Assembly: GCA_963771165.1 (NCBI GenBank)
Contig: CAVYSN010000004.1
Location: 30,114 to 94,113, forward strand
Length of the DNA: 64,000 nt
Source: an uncultured bacterium
GTDB lineage: Bacteria; Acidobacteriota; HRBIN11; JAKEFK01
Reading direction: 5' to 3'
This document shows positions 7,046-21,580 of the stretch, in pieces; within the stretch, counting starts at the first letter, position 1, and each line of letters begins with the position of its first letter. A program made the translations under genes and the position numbers. Under the pieces are notes generated by a model. That model saw only the letters and a list, made by a program, of their open reading frames with translations, was not told where the DNA came from and ran no database searches.

Positions 7046-9097
7046 TTGGTGTTGTGTTTGATTACGATCGCGTCACTGGCCGTTTATGCCAAAACGCTTT
7101 GTCCCACCATATTTACTACAGGAGCCGGCGAAAACGTGACCGCTGTTGTCACATTAGGGATTCCACACCCGCCTGGTTTCCCATTGTTTGTTCTCCTTGG
7201 CAAGATTTTTACTTACGTGATCCCCTTCGGAACAGCTGCTTTCCGAGTGAACTTCTTTTCAGCGGTCTGCGGCGCCGCGGCTGCTGCCATGTTTTACGTT
7301 TTATGCAGAACTCTAGTCGGTCCGGATCGTCGGTTTGCCGCTGCGGCAGCGGCTTTGTTATTTGCATTTTCACAAACGTTCTGGTCGCAGGCAGTCATTG
7401 CCGAAGTTTACACACTGAATGCGTTGATCCTGATTTGCGTCTTTTACATGCTGCGGCGATGGGAACGTGGTGGACCATTGTGGCCTGCGGCTTTATTTGC
7501 AGGCCTGGGCTTAACGGTGCACCCAATGCAAGCATTGTTCTTCCCGGGATGGATGTATTTTATTCTGCGATCCCATAAGCGATCTCAGATTGATTCCGAA
7601 GAGGTAAAAAAGAGTATTGCGGTTTTTGCCGGCGCTTTGTGTTTGCATTTGTATCCGCTCATTCGATCCAGGGCCAATCCACCGCTGGACTGGGGCAATC
7701 CTGAAAACGGGAAAAACCTGATCGCCTACCTGACGGCATCTCAATACCGGGATCGCATGTTTACGCTTCCTTTTTCGGTCGTGCTTGAGAACGCCGGTAA
7801 GGGATTTCAATTACTGTTTGAGCAATTTACGCCCTTTCTTTTTATCCTGCCTCTTGCTGGCGCCGTGTTGCTTTTCAAAAAACAAAGACGTTTGTTCATG
7901 GTAACGTTCCTCTCCGTTGTGCTGACTTTTTTATACGCCATCAATTACAACATTCCGTGGGAAATCGATGTGTACTACATTCCAATTGTGTTTGTGGCGG
8001 CGTTCTGGACCTTTTCGTTACTGTCGTTGGCTCCCGCAAAATATTCTTATGTGTTGCCTTTGCTGGCTGTTCTTCCTTTGATTTTGAACTTTCAACACAA
8101 TGACCGGTCAAAAAATAGAATTGCTCTTGATTATGGAATCGATCTTTTGAACACGGCTCCGGAGAACTCCACACTTCTTTTGCCGCAAACAGACGCTGCG
8201 TTTACGGTGCTCTATTTGACCGGCGCTGAAAAGAAACGAAATGATTTGAGCTTGTGGGTGTACAACGAAGATGGTGTGAGCACTTTGCGGGACGGAGTGA
8301 ATCCGAATGTTCCTCCGATTCCAATGGAGCGATTTCTGGCGGATCGAAAGAATATCTTTTTAACCCAGCGAGTCACGGATGAAACCGTACCGGGATACAA
8401 CCAGCTTCCATATGGCGTGCTCTATCTTCTGGCGCGAAAAGATAGTCAGCCGGGACACGCACCGATTGACTTCACAAAATATCGATTGGAGGAGAACATC
8501 TCTTCGCCACCTTCTTTCTTTCTGGATGACAGGAACCGGGCGGTGCTTGCCTCGTATTATCTGTCGCGCGGGGATCAGGCTCTTTCAGCCGGCAAGAGAG
8601 GGCTTGCGATGGAAGGATATTTAAACGCCGAAAAGTTGGGTGAGGATCTGGCGGAGATTCGGAGCCAGCTTGCACTGCGCTTCGCGGATCTCGGGAACAC
8701 CGCGGCGGCCATTGCTCAGCTTCGTGCGAGCATTCAGCTGAATGAAAGCGCGGGGGATCAGAATCGTCTGGGGCGACTTCTTGCTGAGTCCGGCCGAACG
8801 GATGAAGCCATGACCGCTTTTGTGCGCGCTATTGAACTGGATCCAAAGATGGCCATCGCTCATTCGAATCTCGGAGCCACTCTGGGCATGAAGGGTGATA
8901 TGAAACGGGCCATTCAAGCGTTGGAAACAGCAGTGAGACTCGATCCAAACGATCCGAAATCGCATAACAACCTTGCGATTGCATATATGAAAACGGGACG
9001 CCGTGAGGCGGCGGTTGCGCACTGGAAAACATCCTTGAATCTCGATCCGAGTCAGAAGCAAGTCAGAACGCAGCTGGAAGAATTGAATGTACAATGA
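7046..9097 (+). CDS. DUF2723 (PMT-like membrane glycosyltransferase) with C-terminal TPR repeats
   Basis: 683 aa with multiple TM segments, the motif GIPHPPGFPLFVLLGK, and TPR repeats in the last ~170 aa. An N-terminal extension from ATG 6937 may exist in another frame. Confidence 0.75.
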   Translation: MVLCLITIASLAVYAKTLCPTIFTTGAGENVTAVVTLGIPHPPGFPLFVLLGKIFTYVIPFGTAAFRVNFFSAVCGAAAAAMFYVLCRTLVGPDRRFAAAAAALLFAFSQTFWSQAVIAEVYTLNALILICVFYMLRRWERGGPLWPAALFAGLGLTVHPMQALFFPGWMYFILRSHKRSQIDSEEVKKSIAVFAGALCLHLYPLIRSRANPPLDWGNPENGKNLIAYLTASQYRDRMFTLPFSVVLENAGKGFQLLFEQFTPFLFILPLAGAVLLFKKQRRLFMVTFLSVVLTFLYAINYNIPWEIDVYYIPIVFVAAFWTFSLLSLAPAKYSYVLPLLAVLPLILNFQHNDRSKNRIALDYGIDLLNTAPENSTLLLPQTDAAFTVLYLTGAEKKRNDLSLWVYNEDGVSTLRDGVNPNVPPIPMERFLADRKNIFLTQRVTDETVPGYNQLPYGVLYLLARKDSQPGHAPIDFTKYRLEENISSPPSFFLDDRNRAVLASYYLSRGDQALSAGKRGLAMEGYLNAEKLGEDLAEIRSQLALRFADLGNTAAAIAQLRASIQLNESAGDQNRLGRLLAESGRTDEAMTAFVRAIELDPKMAIAHSNLGATLGMKGDMKRAIQALETAVRLDPNDPKSHNNLAIAYMKTGRREAAVAHWKTSLNLDPSQKQVRTQLEELNVQ

Positions 9098-9111
9098 ACA
9101 TGGAAGTATTT

Positions 9112-9178
9112 TTAACAGAAGGAAGCAAAGAAAGCACAGTTTTTTATTTCTTTGCTCCCTTCGCTATCTTCTGTTGAA
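9112..9178. repeat. Word-hairpin element, AGCAAAG family (F3)
   Basis: ttaacagaaggaagcaaagaaagcacag / ctttgctcccttcgctatcttctgttgaa. The 5' arm contains no T. The element ends 3 nt before the SDR ATG. Confidence 0.85.
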
Positions 9179-9181
9179 AAA

Positions 9182-9874
9182 ATGAAAAAGGTTTTAGTCA
9201 CGGGCGGTACAAAAGGAATTGGAGAGGCAATCGCTTCACATTTACGCGCCTGCGGTTACGGCGTTATCACCTGTGCTCGTGAGGGGGCTGACATCCGTTG
9301 CGACGTCACCGACAGAACGCAGGTTGAGGCAATGCATACTGAAGTCGGTCCGGTTGAAATTTTGATCAATAATGCTGGGGGAGTTCACACTTCAGCGTTT
9401 TTGAAGACCACTGAAGAAGATTGGGACTGGCACTTTAACATAAACCTCAAAAGCATTTTTTACTGTACACAGACTTTTCTTCCTCCCATGCTGGAAAACA
9501 AATGGGGCCGAATCATCAATGTCGCGTCTACTGCCGGAAAAATCGGGGGCCGCTACATTTCCACATATGTCGCCGCAAAACATGCTGTGATCGGACTTAC
9601 ACGATCCCTCGCGCTGGAATATGCGGATAAAGGGATTACGGTGAATGCAGTTTGTCCCTCTTTCGTCGACACACCGATGCTGCGTGACGAAGCGAAACGT
9701 GTTTCGGAAAGGTCAGGAAAAAGTTTGGAATTTGTGATGGAGCGATTCCTCATGATGAACCCCCAAAAACGGTTTGTAACACCGCAGGAAGTGGCAACAG
9801 CCGTTCAATTTTTGATAGAAAACGGTGCCATCAACGGCCAGGCGCTTTCGATTTGTGGAGGCGAAACCAACTGA
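9182..9874 (+). CDS. Short-chain dehydrogenase/reductase (FabG / 3-hydroxyacyl-CoA dehydrogenase-like)
   Basis: MKKVLVTGGTKGIGEAIA is a Rossmann motif, and YVAAKHAV matches the catalytic YxxxK. The start is trimmed to ATG 9182 because the upstream part of the ORF is repeat sequence. Confidence 0.85.
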   Translation: MKKVLVTGGTKGIGEAIASHLRACGYGVITCAREGADIRCDVTDRTQVEAMHTEVGPVEILINNAGGVHTSAFLKTTEEDWDWHFNINLKSIFYCTQTFLPPMLENKWGRIINVASTAGKIGGRYISTYVAAKHAVIGLTRSLALEYADKGITVNAVCPSFVDTPMLRDEAKRVSERSGKSLEFVMERFLMMNPQKRFVTPQEVATAVQFLIENGAINGQALSICGGETN

Positions 9875-10317
9875 TGCGTATCTTGAATCCAAAAACCCTT
9901 GCCACTCCTCGCGGGTACAATCACGGAATCCAGGCAATCGGAAATCTCGTTTTCGTTTCGGGCCAGATCGGATGGGACAAAGAGGGTAAGGTTGCAGAAG
10001 GCCTTGTGAATCAATTCGAGCTGGCTCTGAAAAACATTCTTGTTGTTGTAGAAGATGCAGGCGGAAAAGCAGAAAATATTGCACGTCTCACAATTTTCAT
10101 CAAAGACAAGCAACAATATCTGGACCGGCGTAAGGAGATCGGCGAGCGCTACCGGTCCCTGATGGGCAAGCACTACCCTGCCATGAGCTTGCTGATCATT
10201 CAAGACTTGCTGGAAGAGAAAGCGCTCGTTGAAATTGAAGCCACAGCAGTGCTTGGCAAAACCTCCGGGCGCGGTCGCAGAGTTCGGCGGGCGAGCCGGC
10301 AGCGGTACAACCCATGA
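9874..10317 (+). CDS. RidA/YjgF family protein
   Basis: PRGYNHGIQAIGNLVFVSGQIGWD ... VEIEATAVL. The ATG overlaps the SDR stop (TGATG). Confidence 0.8.
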   Translation: MRILNPKTLATPRGYNHGIQAIGNLVFVSGQIGWDKEGKVAEGLVNQFELALKNILVVVEDAGGKAENIARLTIFIKDKQQYLDRRKEIGERYRSLMGKHYPAMSLLIIQDLLEEKALVEIEATAVLGKTSGRGRRVRRASRQRYNP

Positions 10318-11107
10318 ATGTACCGGAAAGTTTTGAGCTGCATATCGCGGACGGAATTGCGCAAATCGTTTTAAGCCGTCCTGAAGCATACAATGCCTTG
10401 ACTTTTGAAGTCTACAGAGAGCTTACGCAATGCTTCATCGAGCTTGAGGCGGAGGATCGTGTGCGAGTGGTGATTTTGACCGGACGCGGAAAAGCCTTTT
10501 GCAGTGGCGGCGATGTAAAGGACATCATCGGCGCGCTTTTGCATGCGGAGGAAGCCAGACTGCTGCAATTCACTCGAATGACATGCGAACTTGTTTGGAG
10601 CATGCGAACCTGTTCCAAACCAATCATTGCATGCCTGAACGGTGTAACAGCAGGTGCAGGGGCGATTCTTGCGATGGCATCCGATTTTCGTATCGCGGCA
10701 GATACTGCACGAATCGCGTTCCTGTTTGTCCGGGTCGGCCTTTCCGGCGCTGACATGGGCGCCTGTTACGTGCTTCCGAAAATTGTCGGTCTTGACAAAG
10801 GCAACAGAATTGTTGATGACAGGCGACTTCATTTCGGCAGAAGAAGCCCACCGAATCGGCCTTTACAATCGAGTCGTTCGGGCAGAAGAGTTATCCGATG
10901 TCGCGGCAGAACTGGCCACCAAACTCGCGACAGGACCGGCAAACGGGCTCGCCATCACCAAACAGCAGATCAATGCCGAAACGTCTGCCGCGTCTGAAAG
11001 AAGTTCTGGACGCAGAAGCAACCGTGCAAGCACAATGCATGCGACATCCCGACTTTGAAGAAGGTTATAACGCATTCATCGAAAAACGGAATCCGAAATT
11101 TCAATGA
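10314..11107 (+). CDS. Enoyl-CoA hydratase/isomerase family protein, 2 frame breaks
   Basis: VVILTGRGKAFCSGGDVKD ... ACLNGVTAGAGAILAMASDFRIA. The C-terminus continues in ORFs 10654..11058 and 10898..11107. It has an ATGA overlap with RidA. Confidence 0.85.
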
Positions 11108-12210
11108 TTCAACCTTTGCAGCCGGAATTTCAGCAATTGGAAAGCAAGGTCCAGGCTCTTTTTCAGGACAAAAAATGGGCTGTGGAAGAACGAAACGTTT
11201 TCATTTTGCAGAAGTCTCATTCAAGCATTCGGAAAAAACGGATTGCTTCAATTCGTCACGCCTGCGCCATCCGTTCGCAATCTTTGTTTTTTACGTTATG
11301 CGATCGCGCAAAGATCGGCCCTTGGAGATTTGCTTTTTGCCATGCAGGGTCTTGGAAGTTATCCGATCACTCTTGCCGGCAGTGATGAACAAAAGGAGAA
11401 AGTATTTAAGCGGGGTCGCGAATGGGAGACCTGGTTGCGGCATTTGCGATGACAGAGCCGCAAGCAGGTTCTGATGCAGGCTCCATGACAATGAGGGCGG
11501 AAGCACAAGATGGCGGTTACCTGTCTTGAACGGCACTAAAACTTTGATCAGCAATGCAGGACTCGCTGACTTTTATACACTGTTTGCCAGAACTTCGGAA
11601 GGTTCGCGTGGAGTAACCGCTTTTATCCTGGAAGCTTCTTCGCAAGGAGTGCAAACCAAACAGCAGGAGCTTGTTGCGGCCCATCCGATCGGCCAATTGG
11701 AATTGCAGGGATTGCTTCATTCCTGCGAACCTGCGTCTGGGCAACGAGGGGGAAGGGTTGAAGATCGCGTACAGCACGCTCGATGTGTTTCGTCCGAGTG
11801 TCGCAGCGGCAGCAGTCGGAATGGCGGAACGCGCATTTCAAGAAGCTGTCAACTTTGCGAAACAGCGGAAACAGTTTGGTAAAACGATTGCCGAGTTTCA
11901 AGGGATTCAATTCAAGATCGCTGAAATGGCCCAGTTGCTGCAAGCGTCGAAATTACTTGTCTGGGACGCTGCATCAAAAAAGGATACGGGAGCCGCGCGA
12001 ATCACGTTGGAAGCAGCGCTGGCGAAATCCTATGCTACAGAAGCGGCTCAGCAGATCATTGACCAGGCATTGCAAATTCATGGTGGCGTCGGATTGCTTC
12101 GAGGTTCCATCACGGAACGGCTTTACCGCGACATTCGCGCATTGCGCATCTATGAAGGAACCACCGAAGTGCTGAAGACCTTGATCGCGCAGCAATATTT
12201 GAACGCTTGA
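11104..12210 (+). CDS. Acyl-CoA dehydrogenase, at least 4 frame breaks
   Basis: The pieces read ...AFGKNGLLQF..., FAMQGLGSYPITLAGSDEQKEK, AAFAMTEPQAGSDAGS, LNGTKTLISNAG, and the C-terminus QIHGGVGLLRGSITERLYRDIRALRIYEGTTEV. Confidence 0.85.
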
Positions 12211-12212
12211 TT

Positions 12213-12281
12213 TTTACAAAAGGAAGCAAAGAAAGCGAAGAACAAAGAATTCTCTTTGCTACCTTCGCTATCTTCTGTAAA
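12213..12281. repeat. Word-hairpin element, AGCAAAG family (F3)
   Basis: tttacaaaaggaagcaaagaaagcgaagaacaaag / ctctttgctaccttcgctatcttctgtaaa. It fills the whole 73-nt spacer and ends 2 nt before ATG 12284. Confidence 0.85.
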
Positions 12282-12283
12282 AA

Positions 12284-13739
12284 ATGAGCGGCATGCTGTT
12301 TTCACCCTTCGAAATCAACGGGATGATCCTTTCGAACCGGCTCGTTTTGCCGGCTATGGTCACGCGTCTTTCCGGTGAAGATGGATTTGTGAACAAAGAT
12401 ATTCGCGATCGATATTTGCGTTTTGCGCGCGGCGAAGTGGGGATGATCGTTATCGAAGCGATGGGGGTGCATGATACACGAAGCGGTCCATTGTTGCGCT
12501 TAAGCCGCGACGAGTTCATCCCTGGACTGTCAGACATGGCAAAAGCGATTCACGACTCGAGTCCAAGCAAAGTGGTTCCGCAGATCATTCACTTTCTGAA
12601 AGTTGCGCGAAGCGGATGGCGTCAAAAGATTAAGGATTTAACAAAGGATGAAATCCGTTCGATTGTGGATGCTTACGCTGCTGCAGCAGGCAGGGCGCGG
12701 CAAGCCGGATTTGATGGTGTTGAGCTTCACATGGCTCACGCATATACCATTTCTTCTTTTTTGTCCTTACGAAATTTGCGCAATGATGAGTATGGCCGTT
12801 CGCTTGAAAATCGGATGCGGCATGATGAGCGAAATCATTGTGCGGGTGCGGAAAATGATTGGCAATGATTTTCCTTTAGGCATCCGGTTTGACGGCGAAG
12901 AGTGCATCAAGAATGGTTATACATTGAACGATTCGCGTCAGATGGCTTTGAGAATGGCTCAGCTTGGTGTCGATTGGATCAGTGTTTCCGCGGGCGGAAA
13001 ATTTGAAGATGCCGTCCATAAACCGGGAACTCCGTTGTATCCGTACACCGGTTACAGCGGCGATAGATGCATGCCAAGCGCACATTACCCGGATATGGCC
13101 AATGTCCCTGTTACGGAAGGAATTCGCGCGTACATCCGCGAACATGGTTTCACAGTGCCTTTGATTGCAACAGGCAAGATTCGAACCCCGGAACAGGCGG
13201 AAATTCTTTTGAAGCAGGAACGAGCCGATCTCATCGGAATGGCAAGGGCGTTGCTGGCCGATCCGGATCTGCCGAAGAAAGCGCGTGAAGGAAGAACGGA
13301 TAAAATCATTCGATGCACGTACGGGAATGTTTGCAAAAATCTCGATGAGAACTTTCACAAAGTGACGTGCGTTCTTTGGCCCAAAGGTAGCTTGCAAGCG
13401 CCTGACAGTTCCGATGCAGAGGCTCCTCTCTGGCCCAACGAAGGGGCCAGTCTGCAAGCATCCTGCGAAAACGGACAGATCTTTCTTCGATGGAACCATG
13501 CTTTCGATAGGGACCAGTTGTATGGTTATGAAATCTACAGATCGATAGACGGAAAGAGTTTCGATCACGTCACCTCTGTAAAACGAACAACTTTCTATGA
13601 TCTGGATGTTGTGGCATCCAAAACTTATTCGTATTACGTTGTGGCTTACGATCTGGCCGGGAATCATTCGGAATACTCGAATACAGTAAAAATGGGCCTG
13701 CGACCCGCCATCGCGGCGAATCATCCCTGTGAAATCTAA
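12284..13739 (+). CDS. Old Yellow Enzyme family NADH:flavin oxidoreductase with a C-terminal FN3-like domain; one frame break near 12830
   Basis: The N-terminus reads FSPFEINGMILSNRLVLPAM ... GFDGVELHMAHAYTISSFLS. The C-terminus (~13425..13700) reads IFLRWNHAFDRDQLYGYEIYRSIDG ... YSYYVVAYDLAGNHSEYSN, an FN3 pattern. Confidence 0.8.
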
Positions 13740-15438
13740 AATCTGGAACTCTCTGAAAAATTATGAATGGCCGATCCTATGGCTCGCCGCGGTTACCGCT
13801 CTGATTCTGGGCATTTTAGGGTTCAAACAATATTTTGGAAACACACGAACGGAGTGGGACGTACTTTATCTGGCGCTCCAGCTTTTTACGATGGAATCGG
13901 GGTTTCAATCAGGCACAATCGGACCAGTGCTGAATATTGCGAGGTTCCTGGCGCCTCTGGTGACCGTTTATACGGCAACCAAGGCGTTGACTGTCATTTT
14001 TCGAAACCAGTTGCAGCTTGTCCGGCTCAAAACGCAGCAAGGGCATGTTGTGATTGCAGGACTTGGCCGCTCGGGAGTGCTGTTTGCGGAAGCATTTCGA
14101 AAAGCCGGGGAATCCGTGGTTGTCATCGAGAAAAATGAAGACAACGATCAGCTCGAAAATTGCCGCGATGTGGGGGCACTCACACTGGTGGGGGATGCGC
14201 GTACACCGGAGGTTCTGGCCAAAGCCAGAGTAGATCAGGCGCGCGTGCTGATCTGCGTTGCGGGAGAGGATGGTGTAAATGCGGAAATTGCAGTTCAAAC
14301 CAGAGGAATGCTCATTGAGCAAAACGGCAGGCTTACATCGGTCGTTCACATCGTGGATTCGCAACTACGTCAACTCCTCCGAAAACAAGAGCTGATGACC
14401 CTGAAAAACAATCGTATGCGAGTGGAATTTTTCAATGTTTATGAAAGCGCAATCCGCGATCTTCTGGTTCGTTATCCGGCGTTTCAGCAGAGTGGTTCTC
14501 CCAATCTCCTGATCATCGGGTTAGGCCAGATGGGAGAAACTCTTTTGCTTGCGACTGCCCGGAACTGGATCCAAAAAAGATCAAGCCCGTCGGAACGGCT
14601 GGCGGTAACTGTCGTGGATCGATCGGCAAAGAAAAAAGTCGAGGCCCTGAGCGCTCGTTATCCGTATCTAGCAGGAAATTGTTCGATCATAACCTCGGAA
14701 ATGGAAGTTGCCTCTCCTCAATTCTATGAAAGAACGTTTCTAAAAAATCCAGATACGTCGGACGTTTACGTTTGTCTGGACAACGATTCGCTCGTGCTTT
14801 CAACAGCGCTTTTGCTGCGTCAATGGCTCCCTGCTACAACGCCCATTTATGTGCGCATGTCTCAGACAGGCGGATTGTCGACGCTTCTGGAACATCCAGC
14901 CGGGATGCAGGAGAAATCGAAGTTGATTCCGTTTGGGAGCGTGGAGCGCTTCTGTACGCCGGAACTGTTGTCCCGCGGAATGAAAGAAATTCTGGCGCGA
15001 GTCATCCATGAAGAATATGTGAAAGATCTCAAACAGGAAGGTGCTTCTCCGGAACACAATCCATCCCTGTCCTCATGGGAGGAACTCCCTGAATGGTTGA
15101 AAGAATCAAACAGAACTCAGGCGGATCACATTGGTGAAAAACTGAAATCCGTTCAGTGTGATCTGATCTCGTTCTCCAATGAAGAAGCAGAAACATTTCA
15201 ATTCTCCGATCCAGAAATTGAGTCGTTGGCGAAAATGGAACATGAACGGTGGGTCGAGGAACGAAAGAAGGACGGATGGAAGTATGCGCCGGGCGAAAAA
15301 GACATAAAGAACAAGACGAGTCCTTATCTCCTGCCTTACGAAGAGATTTCTGAACAGGTCAAAGAGTACAATCGGAATACTGTCCGTGAGCTGCCGCGCT
15401 TCCTCGCAAGGGCGGGGTATCAGATTTATAGAATTTAA
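13729..15438 (+). CDS. Membrane-anchored RCK/TrkA-N protein with C-terminal RyR-domain repeats
   Basis: There are 2-3 N-terminal TM helices. GHVVIAGLGRSGVLFAEAF is a Rossmann motif. The C-terminus MEHERWVEERKKDGWKYAPGEKDIKNKTSPYLLPYEEISEQVKEYNRNTV matches the bacterial RyR-domain pattern, with a weaker upstream repeat. Confidence 0.7.
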   Translation: MKSKIWNSLKNYEWPILWLAAVTALILGILGFKQYFGNTRTEWDVLYLALQLFTMESGFQSGTIGPVLNIARFLAPLVTVYTATKALTVIFRNQLQLVRLKTQQGHVVIAGLGRSGVLFAEAFRKAGESVVVIEKNEDNDQLENCRDVGALTLVGDARTPEVLAKARVDQARVLICVAGEDGVNAEIAVQTRGMLIEQNGRLTSVVHIVDSQLRQLLRKQELMTLKNNRMRVEFFNVYESAIRDLLVRYPAFQQSGSPNLLIIGLGQMGETLLLATARNWIQKRSSPSERLAVTVVDRSAKKKVEALSARYPYLAGNCSIITSEMEVASPQFYERTFLKNPDTSDVYVCLDNDSLVLSTALLLRQWLPATTPIYVRMSQTGGLSTLLEHPAGMQEKSKLIPFGSVERFCTPELLSRGMKEILARVIHEEYVKDLKQEGASPEHNPSLSSWEELPEWLKESNRTQADHIGEKLKSVQCDLISFSNEEAETFQFSDPEIESLAKMEHERWVEERKKDGWKYAPGEKDIKNKTSPYLLPYEEISEQVKEYNRNTVRELPRFLARAGYQIYRI

Positions 15439-15540
15439 TCCCCATACCGTGGCCGAGCCTGTTGAAAAATTCGAAGAAGGAGTATTTTCTAGAAGGAGCG
15501 CGGGCCCACGTCACAGAATAGTTAAGACTATAATGAACCT

Positions 15541-16728
15541 ATGGATGATTTAGCACGATATCGTTCGGAGTTTCCGATTCTGGAATCCACCACATACATG
15601 ATCAGTCATTCGCTTGGCGCGATGCCGCGAAAGGTTTACGACAAGCTTCGTTCGTATGCAGATATGTGGGCAACGCGCGGAATCCGGGCATGGGCCGAAG
15701 GCTGGTGGGACATGCCGGTGACAACAGGCAATCTGATTGCGTCGTTGATTGGCGCCAGCCCGGGCGAAGTTGTGATGCACCAGAATGTTTCGGTTGCTGT
15801 TTCAATCATTCTCTCTTCGTTTGTCTATCAAACGCCACGAAACAAGATTCTTTATTTTGAAGTCGATTTTCCAACAGTGATCTACGTATTGGAGGCGCAA
15901 AAACGGCGCGGCGCAGAAGTTGTGGGAATTCCTTCCTCAGAAGGATTAAAAGTACCGGTCGATGCGATGCTCCATGCAATTGATGAACGAACTTTGATCG
16001 TCTCGCTCTCTTATGTCTTTTTCAAGAACTCTGAAAAGATCGATATAGCAAAGATCGTTAAAAAAGCGCATGAACAAGGGGCCATGGTTTTGCTGGATGT
16101 CTATCAAGCAACCGGGACAGTGCCTGTCAATGTGCAGCAAATGAACATCGATTTCCTTGTTGGCGGGTCTGTGAAATGGCTCTGCGGCGGACCGGGAGCC
16201 GGTTATTTGTACGTGAACCCGAAACTGTACGACAAGATTGAACCGGCCGTAACAGGCTGGATGGCACACGAACATCCGTTTGCTTTTGAAACAGGCCCGA
16301 TCAAGTATGCTCATAACAGCATGCGTTTTCTGCACGGTTCACCCCAAATCCCCGCTCTCTACGGGGCACAGGCAGGATACGAAATCATCAACGAAATCGG
16401 CGTTGATAAAATTCGACAGAAATCCTTGCGACAAACGGATCTCATCTTCAAACTTTGCGATCAACACGGTTACAAAACCCGAACGCCACGACAGCCGGGG
16501 CAACGCGGTGGAACAGTGGTTGTGGATGTGCCGTATGGAGATGCAGTGCTCAAAGAGATGACGGCGCAAAACGTGCTGGCCGATTACAGGCCGGATGCCG
16601 GAATCCGAATCTCGCCTCACTTCTATACGCTGGATTCTGAAATTGAAACGACGTTTCAAGTCATGGAACGGATTTTCGAAACGCGATCGTATGAAAAACA
16701 CATACAACAAAAAGGAAGTTTGTACTGA
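15541..16728 (+). CDS. kynU: Kynureninase
   Basis: 395 aa of the class V aminotransferase fold with a kynureninase-type N-terminus (YRSEFPILESTTYMISHSLGAMP...WATRGIRAW). It is immediately followed by TDO. Confidence 0.8.
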   Translation: MDDLARYRSEFPILESTTYMISHSLGAMPRKVYDKLRSYADMWATRGIRAWAEGWWDMPVTTGNLIASLIGASPGEVVMHQNVSVAVSIILSSFVYQTPRNKILYFEVDFPTVIYVLEAQKRRGAEVVGIPSSEGLKVPVDAMLHAIDERTLIVSLSYVFFKNSEKIDIAKIVKKAHEQGAMVLLDVYQATGTVPVNVQQMNIDFLVGGSVKWLCGGPGAGYLYVNPKLYDKIEPAVTGWMAHEHPFAFETGPIKYAHNSMRFLHGSPQIPALYGAQAGYEIINEIGVDKIRQKSLRQTDLIFKLCDQHGYKTRTPRQPGQRGGTVVVDVPYGDAVLKEMTAQNVLADYRPDAGIRISPHFYTLDSEIETTFQVMERIFETRSYEKHIQQKGSLY

Positions 16729-16729
16729 A

Positions 16730-17518
16730 ATGGATTACGGTGAATCTAAGCTTACATACGGCGAGTACTTAAAAGTTCCCGACCTGCTGAAACTGCAGCA
16801 TTGCCTCAGCGATCCTGAGAGCCATGATGAGCTGCAGTTCATCATCGTCCATCAAGCATACGAGCTGTGGTTTAAGCTCGTTCTATTTGAGCTCGACTCG
16901 ATCGTCAAAGCAATGAACGAAGGAAACGCGAAATATGCAGTCTGGCTTTTTCAACGGGTTATTTCTATTGAACGGCTTTTGAATCAACAGATCCACATAC
17001 TGGAAACGATGAGCCCTTTGGATTTCCTGCGTTTCCGTGGAAAATTAAACCCTGCCAGTGGATTTCAGTCGGTTCAATTTCGCGAAATTGAATTCATTTC
17101 GAATTTGAAAGAACCTGAGCTGATAAAACGTTTAGAATCGGACCCTGAGAGTCTGGCGAAATTGCAAAAACGTTTGAACGAACCCTCTCTCTGGGACGCT
17201 TTTCTCGGAGTTCTCGAACGAAATGGATTTGAAATTCCTCCAGACCGCGACAGCACAAAGCTGAAGCAGCAGCTTGTCCGGCTGTATGAGAACTCCGATC
17301 AGCACTACGACCTATTTTTACTGGCTGAATCCCTGATCGAACATGATGAGCTTCTTGGATTGTGGAGAGTTCACCATGTCCGCATGGTGGAGAGGATGAT
17401 CGGAAATAAGATCGGAACCGGAGGAAGTGAAGGGGTTCGATATCTCACAAGCACCCTGATGAAAAAATGCTTCCCGGAACTCTGGGACATGCGAACGATG
17501 CTTGGAAACGAGCAATGA
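16730..17518 (+). CDS. kynA: Tryptophan 2,3-dioxygenase
   Basis: LTYGEYLKVPDLLKLQH...HDELQFIIVHQAYELWFKLVLFEL. The ATG is 1 nt after the kynU stop. Confidence 0.9.
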   Translation: MDYGESKLTYGEYLKVPDLLKLQHCLSDPESHDELQFIIVHQAYELWFKLVLFELDSIVKAMNEGNAKYAVWLFQRVISIERLLNQQIHILETMSPLDFLRFRGKLNPASGFQSVQFREIEFISNLKEPELIKRLESDPESLAKLQKRLNEPSLWDAFLGVLERNGFEIPPDRDSTKLKQQLVRLYENSDQHYDLFLLAESLIEHDELLGLWRVHHVRMVERMIGNKIGTGGSEGVRYLTSTLMKKCFPELWDMRTMLGNEQ

Positions 17519-17528
17519 GTCACGGGTT

Positions 17529-18266
17529 ATGAGTTTTGAATGGCAGGAGAAAACCTGGACGGATCTCGAAAAGCATAGGCCGGACGTTGCTTTGCTGCCG
17601 GTCGGCTCCACAGAAGCTCACGGACCTCATCTGCCGCTCGCAACAGATTCGATCATTTCAACAGAAATGGCGAGACGCGCGGCGGCCGAATTGGCAAAGC
17701 AGAACGTTCATGCTCTCATACTCCCCTGTCTTGATTATGCAATCACAGAGTTCAGCAAAGATTTTTACGGGACGATCAGCGTTCGCAAGGATACTTTTCA
17801 AAACCTTCTTCGTGATATTGCGGATAACCTGGCAGCTCAATCGACAGGCCTGCTTTGCATTGTGAATTCGCACCTGGAACCAGACCATATTCAAGCTATT
17901 CAGGAATTTTGCAATTCATACAAGAAGCTGCCGGTTCTTTTCCCGGATAAAACAAAAAAGCCGTGGGGAGCACTATTGACATCCGAATTCAAACAGGGAG
18001 CGTGTCACGCCGGCTGTTATGAAACATCACTCATTCTTCCAGTTCGTGAAGATCTGGTGCGTCCGGAACGAAGTGAACTACGGTCCAATCCGGTCAATCT
18101 TGCGAGACTTATGAAGGAAGGTGTGAAATCCTTTCGAGAAGCGGGAGCCGAGCAGGCATATTTTGGAGATCCCGCAAACGCGACGAAAGAAGAAGGGGAA
18201 CAGACTTACGGCATTTTGACTCGTATGATCGTGGAAACTGTTTTGGATCATCTGCGGAAACCATGA
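17529..18266 (+). CDS. Creatininase-family amidohydrolase
   Basis: LPVGSTEAHGPHLPLATD is the creatininase-family metal-site signature. The gene starts 10 nt after the kynA stop. Confidence 0.8.
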   Translation: MSFEWQEKTWTDLEKHRPDVALLPVGSTEAHGPHLPLATDSIISTEMARRAAAELAKQNVHALILPCLDYAITEFSKDFYGTISVRKDTFQNLLRDIADNLAAQSTGLLCIVNSHLEPDHIQAIQEFCNSYKKLPVLFPDKTKKPWGALLTSEFKQGACHAGCYETSLILPVREDLVRPERSELRSNPVNLARLMKEGVKSFREAGAEQAYFGDPANATKEEGEQTYGILTRMIVETVLDHLRKP

Positions 18267-18991
18267 ACCAGGGAATCGAAATCGGGTCCTGTCTTGTCAG
18301 AAGCTGGACCCTCTACAAGAGTGAATTCGGTCTAATCTTCTTTACCACTCTGGTTGTTACGATTGCCGCTTCAGCTGCGAGCGGTTTTCCCTATATAGGC
18401 CCGGTGATAGGGCTCGCACTAAACGGTGTATTGTATGGAGGACTGTATTCGTTCTATCTGAAACTCATTCGTGGACAGAAGGCGGAGTTGCCGGATGCTT
18501 TTGCAGGCTTCCAGACAGCACTTGTTCCATTGATTCTGGGGAGCTTGCTTACAAATGTGTTGTTTGCTGCCCTCATCATCATTGCTTCTCTTCCCATGCT
18601 CATTCCTCTGGTTCCGCTGCTCATTAAATACTCCAAGGATCCTGCTCTTGCGCCCGATATCCTGCTTCCTGCCCTGGGGGCCGGCGCGATCGTAAACATT
18701 GTTTTGGCAGCTGCTCTTGCGATGTTGCTCTATCTCCTGTGGATCTTCACATTCCCGCTGATCATAGACAAACGGATGGAAGTCTGGCAGGCAATGGAAA
18801 CCAGCCGCAAGACTGTGATGAATAACTTTGGCGCAATGCTAGGCCTTTTTTTCGTGGGCATTCTGTTGACCCTTCTCGGTGTGCTCGCCTGTTGCATCGG
18901 TATGTTTTTTACGTTACCAGTGTTTTTCGGAGCGATAGCTTACGCTTACGAGGACCTATTCGCCGGGAGCGATCGATCCCCGTCCATCTAA
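18263..18991 (+). CDS. Integral membrane protein, unknown function
   Basis: 242 aa with 5-6 hydrophobic helices. It has an ATGA overlap with the preceding gene. Confidence 0.55.
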   Translation: MNQGIEIGSCLVRSWTLYKSEFGLIFFTTLVVTIAASAASGFPYIGPVIGLALNGVLYGGLYSFYLKLIRGQKAELPDAFAGFQTALVPLILGSLLTNVLFAALIIIASLPMLIPLVPLLIKYSKDPALAPDILLPALGAGAIVNIVLAAALAMLLYLLWIFTFPLIIDKRMEVWQAMETSRKTVMNNFGAMLGLFFVGILLTLLGVLACCIGMFFTLPVFFGAIAYAYEDLFAGSDRSPSI

Positions 18992-19103
18992 GAATCCAAC
19001 ACCTGTCATCAAAAAAAAGGACATTCTCCCCCGTTTTCAAAACTCCCTCCTCGAATAGAACTATTGGTATCGAACTTGCATCTAATAGTAGTGGAGGGCG
19101 AAA

Positions 19104-19379
19104 ATGAACGGACAAACAGGCAAAAATAGTTTCAAATTGGGAGATTTGATCGCTGCTTTATTTGAGGAAGCCCGGGTTCTCACATCAGATCGCGGTGAAC
19201 AGACTGTACTTGTGTACGCTGCACTCAAAGATCTATTGCGCGGAAAGGTTCGTCCTGCTCATCCCATCGCTTTGAAGGTCGGCGCCCGGATGACCGACTG
19301 GACACTGAACATTATTACGGGCCTACACGGCCGAGTCGCAGTGACGCAAAAGCAGCGAGGCCGCAGCTTGACAGTTTAA
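19104..19379 (+). CDS. Hypothetical small protein
   Basis: A 91-aa ORF with GGAGGG 6 nt upstream. I recognise no family. Confidence 0.3.
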   Translation: MNGQTGKNSFKLGDLIAALFEEARVLTSDRGEQTVLVYAALKDLLRGKVRPAHPIALKVGARMTDWTLNIITGLHGRVAVTQKQRGRSLTV

Positions 19380-19384
19380 GGGTC

Positions 19385-19475
19385 GTGTAAGAAAGGGGAT
19401 GTGGAGATGAGCTCTTTAATTTTTTACTGGAATCATTTCCTCATCTCAATTATCCCCACATCCCCCTTCTTACAC
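19385..19475. repeat. GGGGATGTGG-family hairpin element (F4)
   Basis: gtgtaagaaaggggatgtggagatgag ... ctcatctcaattatccccacatcccccttcttacac. The 5' arm contains no C. Confidence 0.85.
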
Positions 19476-19492
19476 AGAAAAGCAAACTCTTG

Positions 19493-19521
19493 AGCAGGGC
19501 ATTGGCCCACAATGCCCTGCT
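19493..19521. repeat. Perfect 11-bp hairpin (unique in the window)
   Basis: AGCAGGGCATT-ggcccac-AATGCCCTGCT. Confidence 0.6.
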
Positions 19522-19526
19522 TTCAG

Positions 19527-19583
19527 TAGGGGCGCAATTCATTGCGCTCGCACACGTCGGGCGCGATGAATCGCGCCCCTACT
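19527..19583. repeat. REPIN-like inverted doublet of REP-A
   Basis: gtaggggcgcaattcattgcgc ... gggcgcgatgaatcgcgcccctac. The outer 10-nt arms GTAGGGGCGC/GCGCCCCTAC are perfect complements. Confidence 0.8.
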
Positions 19584-19626
19584 AACTTCCTTTTTACCGA
19601 TTCCCCAGATTAATATTCTTCTTGTC

Positions 19627-21580
19627 ATGACCAAGTACTATGTAACAACTCCCATTTACTACATCAACGGACTACCACACATAGGGCATGCCTTTACGAC
19701 TGTGCTGTCCGATGCCATCGCCAGATATCACCGTTTACTGGGTCATGATGTTTTTTTCCTTACGGGAACAGACGAACATGGCCAGAAAGCCGAGAAAGCC
19801 GCCAGGGAACTGGAAATTTCACCGCAAGAATTGACCGACCGAATCGTTCCGACCTTCCGAGATTTATGGAAGCTTTTGAACATTTCAAACACGGACTTTA
19901 TTCGAACGACTGAAAAGAGACATCGCGAGGGTGTGGAAGAAATATTCCGGCGTTCTCATACCAACGGCGACATTTATCTTGGATCGTATGAAGGCTGGTA
20001 TTGCACTTACGATGAAAATTTTCTGACGGATGGACAACTGGTGGACGGAAAATGTCCCGACTGCCGGCGACCGGTGGAACGCATCCAAGAAGAAAGTTAC
20101 TTTTTCCGTCTCTCAAAATTCCAAGAACCTCTGCTGAACTTCTACAGAAAGAATCCTGATTTTGTCGTTCCCCGTTCCCGTTTCAATGAGGTCATCAGTT
20201 TCGTGCAAGGCGGCTTGCGCGATTTAAGCATTAGCCGCGTGAAGTTGAAATGGGGTATTCCGGTGCCGATCAATCCGGAACATGTGATCTATGTTTGGTT
20301 TGATGCCCTTTCCAACTACGTTACAGCCACGGGATTCCCAACCGACCAGGAAAAATACAAACGTTACTGGCCTGCTGACCTGCATGTGATCGGAAAAGAT
20401 ATTCTGCGATTTCATTGCGTCTACTGGCCGGCCTTTTTGCTATCTGCCGGCCTCCCGTTGCCGAAGCAAGCTCTGGTTCATGGATGGTGGCTGAAAGAAG
20501 ATGAAAAAATCTCCAAATCGCGCGGCAATGTTGTGGATCCGCATTCTTTGGTCAGCAATTTTGGAGTGGATGGACTTCGTTATTTCCTGATCCGCGAAGC
20601 GCCACTGGAAGGGGACAGCAATTATTCCTTCAACACAATTTTGAAACGGGTGAACAGCGATCTTGCAAACGATCTTGGAAATCTTGCCAGCAGAATCCTC
20701 ACAATGGTGGAACGCTATTCGGCAGGAAAAATTCCCGGTGTGGCTGCAACTCGTGCCCCTTTTCAAGATTCTCTCGAAAACATTGTGTCGCGAGTGCCTC
20801 AATATATCGCCGAGTTCACTCTGTCTCGTCTGCTCGCTGACATCTGGAGCATCGTAACAGCGATGAACAGATACATCGTTGAGGAACAACCGTGGAATCT
20901 CGCAAAAACGCCTGAGACCCGCGGGCGTCTGGAAGAGGTATTGTACAACAGCTGCGAAGGCCTGCGCATCATATGCAGGGTTGATCGCACCCGTCATTCC
21001 CGATTCCTCGGACTCGATCTGGGAACAGATCGGGTTGGGACGAACAGCTGCAAAAGCACGGATCGAGGATTTACAATGGGGCAGATTGCAGCCCGGAACC
21101 ACCATCGGCAAGATCACACCAATCTTTCCGCGCATCGAATTTAACCACCAAGACGCCAAAGTCACCAAGATCACACAGAAAAATCATTTAATCCCTGGCG
21201 AAAATGGCGATCTTGGCGCCATGGCGGTGAAAGAACCGGCAAAAGAAGAAAGTTCGGCGGATGCGACGATTGAAGACTTTCAAAAACTCGGATTGAAAGT
21301 GGGCGAGATTAAAAGCGCTGAAAAAATTAAAGGATCGAAGAAACTATTGAAGTTGAGCGTGGATCTCGGTTCGGAGACCCGGCAGCTTGTAGCCGGCATC
21401 GCGGAAGCTTACGCGGCGGAAGAATTGATCGGCAAACAGGTGATCGTTGTTTCCAATTTGAAGCCGACAAAAATCATGGGGGTTGAATCCAATGGAATGG
21501 TTCTGGCCGCCTCCATCGATGGAAAACCGGTACTCGCTTCCGTAACAGCAAAAGTCCCGAACGGAACGATTGTAAAATAA
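19627..21580 (+). CDS. metG: Methionine--tRNA ligase with C-terminal tRNA-binding domain; one frame break near 20972
   Basis: PIYYINGLPHIGHAFT is the HIGH region and KISKSRGNVVDP is KMSKS. The C-terminus reads KLLKLSVDLGSETRQLVAGIAEAY...VVSNLKPTKIMGVESNGMVLAA. Removing one nt at ~20972 gives ...LRIIAGLIAPVIP. Confidence 0.95.
21141..21230. repeat. CGCCAAG-family word-hairpin (F8) embedded in frame in the metG linker
   Basis: ttaaccaccaagacgccaaagtcaccaagatcacacag / ctggcgaaaatggcgatcttggcgccatggcggtga is translated as NHQDAKVTKITQKNHLIPGENGDLGAMAV. It has the same grammar as 277..338. Confidence 0.6.

What the first reader, a model, noticed from the sequence alone, without database searches (positions are those of the whole stretch)
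15541..18266. A creatininase-family hydrolase sits where kynurenine formamidase should be in a kynU-kynA operon
The genes are tightly packed. kynU (15541..16728) is followed by kynA (16730..17518, 1-nt gap). A creatininase-family gene follows (17529..18266, 10-nt gap), and then a membrane protein (ATGA overlap).

Tryptophan-to-anthranilate catabolism needs a third enzyme, N-formylkynurenine formamidase. The canonical bacterial KynB is a cyclase-fold enzyme, and none is present here.

The creatininase fold (signature GSTEAHGPHLPLATD present) is a metal-dependent amide hydrolase fold. It includes a known formamide hydrolase, the archaeal riboflavin-pathway deformylase ArfB. A non-orthologous formamidase is therefore chemically plausible.
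Basis: inference. Interest (0 to 1): 0.6.

Follow-up and report, generated by a model that had tools for sequence, protein, structure and literature searches.

The report
Candidate creatininase-fold kynurenine formamidase
A metal-dependent hydrolase of the creatininase family sits directly after the tryptophan-cleaving genes in a soil-bacterial tryptophan breakdown cluster; comparative genomics makes it the best, still untested, candidate for the de-formylation step that canonical KynB normally performs.

Summary
kynU-like (15541-16728), kynA (16730-17518), a creatininase-family gene (17529-18266) and a membrane protein (18263-18991) are packed as described.

They form the end of a larger cluster: SDR, RidA, enoyl-CoA hydratase, acyl-CoA dehydrogenase, OYE reductase, kynU, kynA, creatininase. 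This is a tryptophan to anthranilate to anthraniloyl-CoA route.

The creatininase subfamily has more than 570 relatives in at least 6 phyla, always in such clusters. Its commonest neighbour is a distinct aryl-CoA ligase, not kynA.

For the formamidase idea:
- 49/50, 41/43 and 17/19 carrier genomes have kynA.
- In unbiased samples of two phyla, no kynA+ carrier has a high-scoring (canonical-type) KynB (0/58), against 32/73 kynA+ non-carriers.
- Complete anthraniloyl-CoA clusters exist without this gene, and those genomes have KynB.
- Two family members (ArfB, BrbF) are proven aryl-formamide hydrolases.

Against:
- This genome does carry an unlinked KynB-like cyclase, of a separate 1R61-like clade.
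- The ligase and kynureninase types co-vary with the creatininase.
- Nothing has been assayed.

Verdict: first reading partly supported; formamidase role about 55% likely. The scan had noted the same gene family in at least 8 other genomes.

The parts
17529..18266 (+). Creatininase-family (PF02633) metal hydrolase, 245 aa. It is the candidate aryl-formamidase.
   Evidence: PF02633 scores 171.6 bits, full length. It falls below the cut-offs of MftE (105/172) and creatininase (76/235). The residues aligned to creatininase's metal and catalytic positions are conserved in 10 orthologues: E29, H31, D40, H115, E/D117, H160, E165. Orthologues are 65-80% identical within the family and 40-53% identical in other phyla.
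16730..17518 (+). kynA, tryptophan 2,3-dioxygenase, 262 aa
   Evidence: PF03301 scores 202.6 bits. TIGR03036 matches full length at 246 bits, below its cut-off of 391.
15541..16728 (+). Kynureninase-like PLP enzyme (kynU, divergent type), 395 aa
   Evidence: Aminotran_5 + KYNU_C domains. TIGR01814 scores 144 bits against a cut-off of 246. The best PDB match is kynureninase 1QZ9 at 172 bits; cysteine desulfurases score 65 bits or less.
18263..18991 (+). DUF975/BPSS1780-like membrane protein. Its start overlaps the creatininase stop (ATGA).
   Evidence: NF041043 scores 66.5 bits and PF06161 27 bits, both under their cut-offs. It is conserved next to the creatininase gene only in the same genus (L005, L024), not in the rest of the family. 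It is probably not a core part.
12284..13739 (+). OYE-family flavin reductase, resembling the reductase half of 2-aminobenzoyl-CoA monooxygenase/reductase. It is read in two frames in this assembly.
   Evidence: PF00724 and NF006101 give partial matches. tblastn gives 25-33% identity to the OYE half of ABMOR. In relatives it lies directly upstream of kynU.
11270..12210 (+). Acyl-CoA dehydrogenase, fragmented by frame changes in this assembly
   Evidence: tblastn pieces are 40-54% identical to the cluster ACAD. The C-terminal ORF matches acyl-CoA dehydrogenase families.
10311..11101 (+). Enoyl-CoA hydratase family protein, fragmented by frame changes in this assembly
   Evidence: tblastn pieces are 56-61% identical. 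NF006107 scores 237 bits on the first piece.
9853..10317 (+). RidA/YjgF family protein
   Evidence: PF01042 scores 73.6 bits. It is 41% identical to the cluster RidA.
9152..9874 (+). Short-chain dehydrogenase (AbmB-like)
   Evidence: adh_short scores 171 bits. It is 42% identical to the cluster SDR.
13729..15438 (+). TrkA_N + RyR domain protein inserted between the OYE gene and kynU. It is not part of the conserved cluster.
   Evidence: Pfam domains. The gene is absent from the syntenic loci of all family relatives, where OYE abuts kynU.

Best explanation
The gene at 17529-18266 most likely encodes a metal-dependent aryl-formamide hydrolase. It would carry out the de-formylation step of tryptophan catabolism: TDO (kynA) opens the indole ring to N-formylkynurenine; this enzyme removes the formyl group, either from N-formylkynurenine or, after side-chain cleavage, from N-formylanthranilate; and the kynureninase-like enzyme yields anthranilate. 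In this cluster type anthranilate is then burned through anthraniloyl-CoA, using an aryl-CoA ligase encoded elsewhere in this family, the OYE reductase, SDR, RidA, ECH and ACAD. The enzyme would thus be a non-orthologous replacement of the canonical cyclase-fold KynB.

Shown: gene order, family membership, conserved catalytic residues, conserved clustering, and a distribution complementary to canonical KynB.

Inferred: the substrate and the reaction.
For: 1. Clustering with kynA/kynU recurs in different gene orders.
- kynU-kynA-creatininase in all 6 family relatives.
- creatininase-kynA with an ATGA overlap, then kynU, in G014.
- creatininase first and kynA-kynU last in the operons of Gemmatimonadota and Eisenbacteria.
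- 37 of 80 loci hold kynA or kynU within 10 kb; none holds a cyclase-type kynB.

2. Carrier genomes almost always have TDO: 49/50. In unbiased samples 41/43 carriers in Gemmatimonadota and 17/19 in the window's own phylum have TDO. Put the other way, carriers make up 41/83 and 17/48 of the kynA+ genomes but only 2/68 and 2/103 of the kynA- genomes.

3. Complementarity with KynB. High-scoring KynB (170 bits or more on TIGR03035, often adjacent to kynA) occurs in 0/41 and 0/17 kynA+ carriers. It occurs in 19/42 and 13/31 kynA+ non-carriers. Fisher's test gives p = 1.7e-10, not corrected for phylogeny.

4. The gene is not a core step of the anthraniloyl-CoA pathway.
- 240 plasmid or megaplasmid records have full-length ABMOR, and none has this subfamily.
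- The Ralstonia and Roseivivax clusters lack it.
- 12 Gemmatimonadota genomes are ABMOR+, kynA+ and non-carriers, and all 12 have a KynB-like gene. The six of these clusters examined are complete Ralstonia-type clusters.

5. In this window's family the ligase is unlinked, on another contig or more than 200 kb away, while the creatininase stays next to kynA.

6. There is precedent in the family. ArfB and BrbF (annotated as a creatininase) were shown experimentally to deformylate an N-formyl-aminopyrimidine (PMC9478397).

7. All residues aligned to creatininase's metal and catalytic positions are conserved.
Against: 1. The genome has an unlinked KynB-like cyclase: 150 bits on TIGR03035, 131 bits to 1R61, and 84-100 bits to validated KynBs. 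About a third of carrier genomes have one of this clade. In one Acidobacteriota family it is the only KynB-like gene of kynA+ non-carriers, so it may already cover the step.

2. The commonest neighbour is a distinct aryl-CoA ligase (58/80 loci, 45 within 400 bp), not kynA (2).
- Blastocatellia have a ligase-creatininase-thioesterase triad far from kynA/kynU.
- A cultured Sphingomonas has the ligase-creatininase pair among unrelated genes.

3. The complementarity may reflect only two cluster lineages. The ligase type (35% identity), ABMOR type (58-65% vs 50-55% identity) and kynureninase type all co-vary with it. Independent events may therefore be few.

4. One carrier genome (G070) has a clade I KynB.

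5. Two rare creatininase-SDR fusions point towards the CoA part of the pathway.

6. No enzyme assay exists.
Confidence: 0.55

Rival explanations
1. The enzyme serves the CoA-dependent half of the pathway, not de-formylation. Working with the distinct aryl-CoA ligase, it would hydrolyse a pathway intermediate or side product. [quoted passage not shown] Another is cleavage of a lactam or amide formed from the amino-acyl-CoA.
For: - The ligase is the most constant neighbour (45/80 within 400 bp), followed by the SDR (31/80).
- The ligase-creatininase(-thioesterase) module stands alone in Blastocatellia and in a Sphingomonas.
- Two creatininase-SDR fusion proteins exist.
- 41/43 Gemmatimonadota carriers have ABMOR.
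- The known pathway has an unassigned hydrolytic deamination step (PMC3534580).
- The family includes a ring-opening hydrolase, IolN (NCBIfam hit).
Against: - Complete anthraniloyl-CoA clusters lack the gene in Proteobacteria and in non-carrier Gemmatimonadota, so no universal step needs it.
- RidA and ECH in the cluster already fit deamination and ring cleavage.
- In the window's family the gene stays beside kynA while the ligase is elsewhere.
- This reading does not explain why carriers lack canonical KynB.
Confidence: 0.25
2. In this particular genome the creatininase-family gene is redundant or has another amide substrate. De-formylation would then be done by the unlinked KynB-like cyclase (clade II, 1R61-like) or by an unspecific esterase or amidase.
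For: - The cyclase aligns full length with validated KynBs at 84-100 bits.
- Clade II is enriched in kynA+ genomes of the window's phylum: 20/48 vs 16/103.
- In family f31 it is the only KynB-like gene beside kynA.
Against: - Clade II was not next to kynA or kynU in any of the 16 clade II loci examined.
- It shows no association with kynA in Gemmatimonadota: 16/83 vs 18/68.
- It occurs in at least 9 kynA- genomes, confirmed by the tree.
- The creatininase gene is intact and tightly packed with kynA in an assembly full of indel errors.
- It is conserved at 65-80% identity across the family.
Confidence: 0.12
3. It is an MftE-like peptidase or a true creatininase placed here by chance.
For: The best NCBIfam hits are MftE (105.5 bits) and creatininase (76.5 bits).
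Against: - Both scores are far below their cut-offs (172 and 235).
- No mycofactocin or creatinine genes are nearby.
- The clustering with tryptophan and anthranilate genes is conserved in at least 6 phyla.
Confidence: 0.03

Closest known systems
KynB, the cyclase-fold kynurenine formamidase (PDB 4COB, 4COG, 4CO9/4CZ1; NCBIfam TIGR03035)
   Same: It catalyses the reaction proposed here and has the same pathway position, often adjacent to kynA. It is a metal-dependent amide hydrolase.
   Different: The fold and family are unrelated (PF04199 vs PF02633). The two are mutually exclusive in kynA+ genomes of two phylum samples: 0/58 carriers have a high-scoring (canonical-type) KynB.
ArfB (archaeal) and BrbF (S. 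meliloti SMc02977): creatininase-type formamide hydrolases of riboflavin biosynthesis
   Same: Both hydrolyse an N-formyl group on an aromatic (pyrimidine) amine, which is the chemistry proposed here (PMC9478397).
   Different: The substrate and pathway differ. No riboflavin genes lie nearby. Sequence-level relatedness to ArfB and BrbF was not measured, because no reference sequences were on hand.
Creatininase of Pseudomonas putida (PDB 1J2T, 1V7Z, 1Q3K; TIGR04448)
   Same: The fold is the same, and the residues aligned to the binuclear metal site and catalytic His are conserved.
   Different: The match is only 36-38 bits to the solved enzymes, and 76 bits against a cut-off of 235 on the equivalog model. 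The genomic context is different, and creatininase's substrate is a cyclic amide.
abm clusters for aerobic 2-aminobenzoyl-CoA metabolism (Azoarcus evansii; Ralstonia megaplasmid and Roseivivax plasmid seen here)
   Same: SDR, RidA, ECH, ACAD and an OYE/ABMOR reductase are shared, and the proposed downstream route is the same.
   Different: Those clusters have no creatininase-family gene, a different ligase type (35% identity), and usually no kynA/kynU inside. The window's family has a stand-alone OYE instead of the fused monooxygenase/reductase.
MftE, the mycofactocin peptidase (TIGR03964)
   Same: It is the best-scoring NCBIfam model (105.5 bits) and belongs to the same superfamily.
   Different: The score is under the cut-off of 172, and no mft genes are nearby.

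Membership tests
Creatininase family (Pfam PF02633) | Full-length match to the family HMM above the gathering score | tested here: met
   171.6 bits against a cut-off of 31.3; positions 2-237 of 238.
Creatininase family (Pfam PF02633) | Conserved metal-binding and catalytic residues (Glu/His/Asp, His/Glu, catalytic His) | tested here: met
   E29, H31, D40, H115, E/D117, H160 and E165 align with the corresponding creatininase residues. They are invariant or conservative in 10 orthologues. The identity of the creatininase residues rests on published structures recalled from memory.
Creatininase proper (TIGR04448 equivalog) | Score at or above the curated cut-off | tested here: not met
   76.5 bits against 235.
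MftE (TIGR03964 equivalog) | Score at or above the cut-off, and a mycofactocin gene neighbourhood | tested here: not met
   105.5 bits against 172. The neighbours are kyn and acyl-CoA genes, not mftABC.
KynB, cyclase-type kynurenine formamidase (TIGR03035 / PF04199) | Cyclase fold and family HMM match | tested here: not met
   The protein has no PF04199 or TIGR03035 match. The genome's only such gene is on contig C21.
Kynurenine/aryl-formamidase by function (EC 3.5.1.9) | Hydrolysis of N-formyl-L-kynurenine or other aromatic formylamines | not testable with these tools
   Only genomic inference is available: clustering with kynA/kynU and complementarity with KynB.
ArfB/BrbF AFRPP deformylases | Association with riboflavin or GTP cyclohydrolase III genes; orthology to MJ0116 or SMc02977 | tested here: inconclusive
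   No riboflavin genes were seen in the part of the window annotated here (about 1-24 kb), so the context criterion is not met.
Tryptophan-to-anthraniloyl-CoA (abm-type) catabolic cluster | Co-located SDR, RidA, ECH, ACAD and ring reductase, with an aryl-CoA ligase | tested here: inconclusive
   SDR, RidA, ECH, ACAD and OYE are present upstream. No orthologous ligase was found in this assembly, which is 73% complete (best 29-32% identity). Relatives G002-G006 have the ligase at an unlinked site. The fused FAD-monooxygenase half is absent from the locus.

The most novel reading that the evidence does not exclude
The creatininase-fold enzyme, the distinct aryl-CoA ligase and the divergent kynureninase-like enzymes form an alternative tryptophan route in which the order of steps is changed. 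The side chain would be cleaved first, converting N-formylkynurenine to N-formylanthranilate plus alanine. The creatininase-fold enzyme would then deformylate N-formylanthranilate, or its CoA ester, immediately before or at ligation. This would explain why the enzyme travels with the ligase rather than with kynA, and why carrier clusters also have non-canonical kynureninases.
Probability: 0.15. Interest if true: 0.7.

Novelty: new variant of a known kind. Interest (0 to 1): 0.55.

Why it matters
N-formylkynurenine de-formylation is known from two unrelated enzyme types: the cyclase-fold KynB of bacteria and the alpha/beta-hydrolase formamidases of eukaryotes. A creatininase-fold formamidase would be a third, independent solution.

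It would also fill a missing-gene hole in the tryptophan catabolism of many uncultured soil lineages (Acidobacteriota, Gemmatimonadota, Myxococcota, Planctomycetota, Eisenbacteria). In these lineages 39 of 61 carrier genomes show no convincing KynB. Pathway reconstruction from metagenomes would then stop calling the kynurenine route incomplete there.

No paper in the searched library links the creatininase family to the kynurenine pathway. The claim can be tested directly with one recombinant protein and a spectrophotometric assay.

Tried and rejected
- **Promoter and terminator scan of 9000-19700.** It found fewer sites than shuffled sequence and was uninformative.
- **Search for fused forms of the protein.** It found only two creatininase-SDR proteins, and none fused to TDO, kynureninase or the ligase.
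- **ESM Atlas look-up.** It returned only 'creatininase family protein' clusters.
- **Plasmid collection.** It holds no orthologue; the best match is 31% identical.
- **Literature searches** for creatininase with formylkynurenine, kynurenine formamidase, kynureninase or anthranilate returned only unrelated papers.
- **Thioesterase replacement idea.** I considered that the creatininase replaces the 4HBT thioesterase of proteobacterial abm clusters. I rejected this because both occur side by side in Blastocatellia and Planctomycetota loci.
- **Pseudogene reading of the frame-shifted ECH, ACAD and OYE genes.** This is probably wrong, because essential leuS in the same window is split into four ORFs, which points to assembly indel errors.
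- **The 170-bit threshold on TIGR03035.** It is only a heuristic for clade I. Three Blastocatellia clade II proteins score 172-175 bits.
- **Alpha/beta-hydrolase-type formamidases.** I did not search for them, because no specific model was available.
Full report
**Observation.**
- The kynureninase-like gene (15541-16728) has Aminotran_5 plus the kynureninase C-terminal domain. Its best solved relative is P. fluorescens kynureninase 1QZ9 at 172 bits, and cysteine desulfurases score 65 bits or less. It scores only 144 bits against the 246-bit cut-off of TIGR01814.
- kynA (16730-17518) is a clear TDO: PF03301 at 202.6 bits.
- The third gene (17529-18266) matches Pfam Creatininase end to end at 171.6 bits and carries the quoted motif.
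- No cyclase-family gene lies in the window.

**Wider anatomy.** The trio is the tail of a same-strand cluster: SDR (9152-9874), RidA (9853-10317), enoyl-CoA hydratase, acyl-CoA dehydrogenase, an OYE-family reductase (to 13739), then kynU, kynA and the creatininase-family gene.
- A TrkA_N/RyR-domain gene (13729-15438) is inserted before kynU in this genome only.
- ECH, ACAD and OYE are read in several frames. Essential leuS (2426-4735, minus strand) is also split into four ORFs, so these breaks are most likely assembly indel errors. The genome scores only 73% complete despite having just 22 contigs.
- In other phyla the same gene set includes a fused FAD-monooxygenase/OYE protein, like 2-aminobenzoyl-CoA monooxygenase/reductase, and an AMP-forming ligase.
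- The cluster is therefore a tryptophan to anthranilate to anthraniloyl-CoA catabolic unit, following the Azoarcus evansii route described in PMC4539516 and PMC3534580.

**Distribution of the subfamily.** An alignment of 10 orthologues (A1) retrieved more than 570 relatives among species-representative genomes. They come from Blastocatellia and other Acidobacteriota, Gemmatimonadota, Polyangia/Myxococcota, Planctomycetota, Eisenbacteria and some Pseudomonadota. The counts below are lower bounds, because many contigs are short.

| Feature in the 80 best loci | Loci | Within 400 bp of the creatininase gene |
|---|---|---|
| Aryl-CoA ligase | 58 | 45 |
| SDR | 46 | 31 |
| kynA or kynU | 37 (both in 32) | kynA in 2 |
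| Cyclase-type kynB | 0 | 0 |

The window's family is one of the two arrangements in which the gene directly follows kynA. In its relatives the orthologous ligase lies on another contig or more than 200 kb away.

**Is there a KynB elsewhere?** Yes, of a kind. G000:C21:299185-299631 encodes a 209-aa cyclase-family protein next to sucD, ndk and an IS110 transposase.
- It matches TIGR03035 end to end at 150 bits (cut-off 223).
- Its best solved relatives are the uncharacterised 1R61/3KRV and 8HMO hydrolases (131 and 128 bits), ahead of validated KynBs (84-100 bits).
- A kynA-adjacent KynB from a Gemmatimonadota genome behaves the opposite way: 174, 153 and 116 bits to the KynBs, and 64 bits to 1R61.
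- A maximum-likelihood tree of 38 such proteins splits them into two clades with 100/98 support.
  - Clade I holds all seven kynA-adjacent genes and the high scorers.
  - Clade II holds this genome's protein, the Blastocatellia ones, and nine proteins from genomes without kynA.
- Clade II was not next to kynA or kynU in any of the 16 clade II loci examined.

There is no canonical, kynA-linked KynB, but there is a related cyclase whose function is open.

**Tests between the readings.**

(a) Carriers nearly always have TDO. In the locus-derived set the figure is 49/50. In unbiased samples of 151 genomes each:
- Gemmatimonadota: 41/43 carriers have TDO; carriers make up 41/83 kynA+ genomes against 2/68 kynA- genomes.
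- The window's own phylum: 17/19 carriers have TDO; carriers make up 17/48 kynA+ genomes against 2/103 kynA- genomes.

These counts come, and the tallies were recomputed.

(b) Complementarity with high-scoring KynB (170 bits or more) among kynA+ genomes:

| Sample | Carriers | Non-carriers |
|---|---|---|
| Gemmatimonadota | 0/41 | 19/42 |
| Window's own phylum | 0/17 | 13/31 |
| Both | 0/58 | 32/73 |

- Fisher's test gives p = 1.7e-10. It is not corrected for relatedness, so it overstates the case.
- In at least 12 Gemmatimonadota and 4 Acidobacteriota non-carriers, kynB abuts kynA.
- Among the 61 carrier genomes examined directly, one (G070) has a clade I KynB, about 21 have a clade II type, and 39 have nothing above about 110 bits.

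(c) The gene is not a general step of the anthraniloyl-CoA pathway.
- 240 plasmid or megaplasmid records hold a full-length ABMOR, but none holds this subfamily.
- The Ralstonia and Roseivivax clusters contain ABMOR, SDR, MarR, ECH, ACAD, ligase, thioesterase and RidA only.
- Twelve Gemmatimonadota genomes are ABMOR+, kynA+ and non-carriers, and 12/12 have a KynB-like gene.
- The six of these clusters examined are complete Ralstonia-type clusters.
- Forty Gemmatimonadota genomes are ABMOR+, kynA+ and carriers. None has a high-scoring KynB.

(d) Chemistry. BrbF of S. meliloti, annotated as a creatininase, and archaeal ArfB both deformylate an N-formyl-aminopyrimidine (PMC9478397). All residues aligned to creatininase's metal and catalytic positions are conserved here.

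**What weakens the formamidase reading.**
- The ligase, not kynA, is the constant partner.
  - Blastocatellia carry a ligase-creatininase-thioesterase triad, while kynU-kynA-ECH-RidA and the clade II cyclase lie elsewhere.
  - A cultured Sphingomonas has DUF885-ligase-creatininase beside a penicillin-amidase homologue and TonB receptors.
- The two cluster lineages differ in more than this gene.
  - Ligase: 35% identity between the two types.
  - ABMOR: 58-65% against 50-55% identity to the query.
  - Kynureninase: canonical at 388 bits in non-carrier clusters. Carrier clusters have either the window type (144 bits) or a second type with no NCBIfam match.
  - The complementarity with KynB may therefore rest on few evolutionary events.
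- In the window's phylum, clade II-like cyclases are enriched in kynA+ genomes (20/48 vs 16/103). In one family they are the only KynB-like gene beside kynA. They could be working formamidases, which would make the creatininase redundant in this genome.
- Two creatininase-SDR fusions exist.

A variant that reconciles most of this is de-formylation of N-formylanthranilate, which would feed the ligase directly. It rests on the textbook observation, recalled from memory and not tested here, that kynureninase and arylformamidase also accept the formylated compounds.

**Comparison with the known.** The protein is a member of the creatininase family by HMM and by catalytic residues. It is not creatininase proper (76 bits against 235), not MftE (105 against 172, with no mft genes nearby), and not KynB. 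It would work like KynB, and chemically like ArfB and BrbF. No paper in the searched library connects this family with the kynurenine pathway.

**Earlier notes from this scan.** Follow-up agents reached similar conclusions for the same gene family in at least 8 other genomes. Those notes gave me the BrbF lead, which I checked in the paper. I checked the 'distinct ligase' remark by alignment.

This report adds:
- the kynA-adjacent, ligase-unlinked arrangement of this family;
- the two-clade analysis of the cyclases;
- the quantified complementarity in two phylum samples.

**Data caveat.** The tallies for the window's phylum include one unpublished genome (G035). It is one of the 31 kynA+ non-carriers and has a lower-scoring (tier-ii) cyclase. 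Removing it changes no conclusion.

**Verdict.**
- Aryl-formamidase role: about 0.55.
- A role in the CoA-dependent half of the pathway: about 0.25.
- Redundancy with the clade II cyclase in this genome: about 0.12.

If confirmed, this would be a new variant of a known kind, namely a third fold for kynurenine/aryl-formamidase. It is of moderate interest and directly testable.

Noticed in passing
window 2426-4735 (-), 10311-13739 (+): Essential leuS is split into four consecutive ORFs that match profile positions 36-143, 125-270, 277-377 and 376-842. ECH, ACAD and OYE in the cluster are likewise read in several frames. This suggests frequent indel errors in the assembly (73% 'completeness' with only 22 contigs) rather than pseudogenes.
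   Followed up: partly
window 13729-15438 (+): A 569-aa TrkA_N + RyR-domain protein is inserted between the OYE gene and kynU. It is absent from the syntenic loci of all six family relatives. Its function and origin are unknown.
   Followed up: partly
window 19104-19379 (+): A small ORF of 91 aa has no family match. It is conserved (56-76% identity over about 59 aa) between the creatininase gene and metG in all family relatives, and is duplicated in two of them (L027, L028).
   Followed up: no
L029:8498-9800, L124:7097-8251, window 15541-16728: There are three kinds of kynureninase-like genes. Clusters with KynB have the canonical kind (TIGR01814, 388 bits). Carrier clusters have either the window type (144 bits) or a second type that is only 22-26% identical to it, with no NCBIfam match and a weak KYNU_C hit.
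   Followed up: partly
L130, L131, L132, L137 (Gemmatimonadota): Clade II cyclase domains lie inside open frames of 690-770 aa. This may be a fusion to another domain, or it may be an artefact of high G+C content.
   Followed up: no
L083:6376-13122 (Sphingomonas sp. HITSZ_GF, cultured): A DUF885 - aryl-CoA ligase - creatininase-subfamily string has a convergent penicillin-amidase homologue and flanking TonB-dependent receptors. The genome has kynA but no KynB-like match, so it could serve as an experimental system.
   Followed up: partly
G000:C21:53520-54269 (L003:1483-2373): A second, distant creatininase-family paralogue (296 aa, PF02633 at 139 bits) lies next to an acyltransferase gene. It is unrelated to the kyn cluster.
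   Followed up: no
G022, G272, G326, G331 (window's phylum): A further creatininase subgroup scores 110-119 bits on alignment A1 and lies in open frames of about 800-1100 aa. It is distinct from the orthologues studied here.
   Followed up: no
L122 (Roseivivax plasmid pTHAF197b_a): A proteobacterial abm cluster has kynA embedded between ACAD and the ligase, but has neither kynB nor the creatininase gene on the stretch examined.
   Followed up: no
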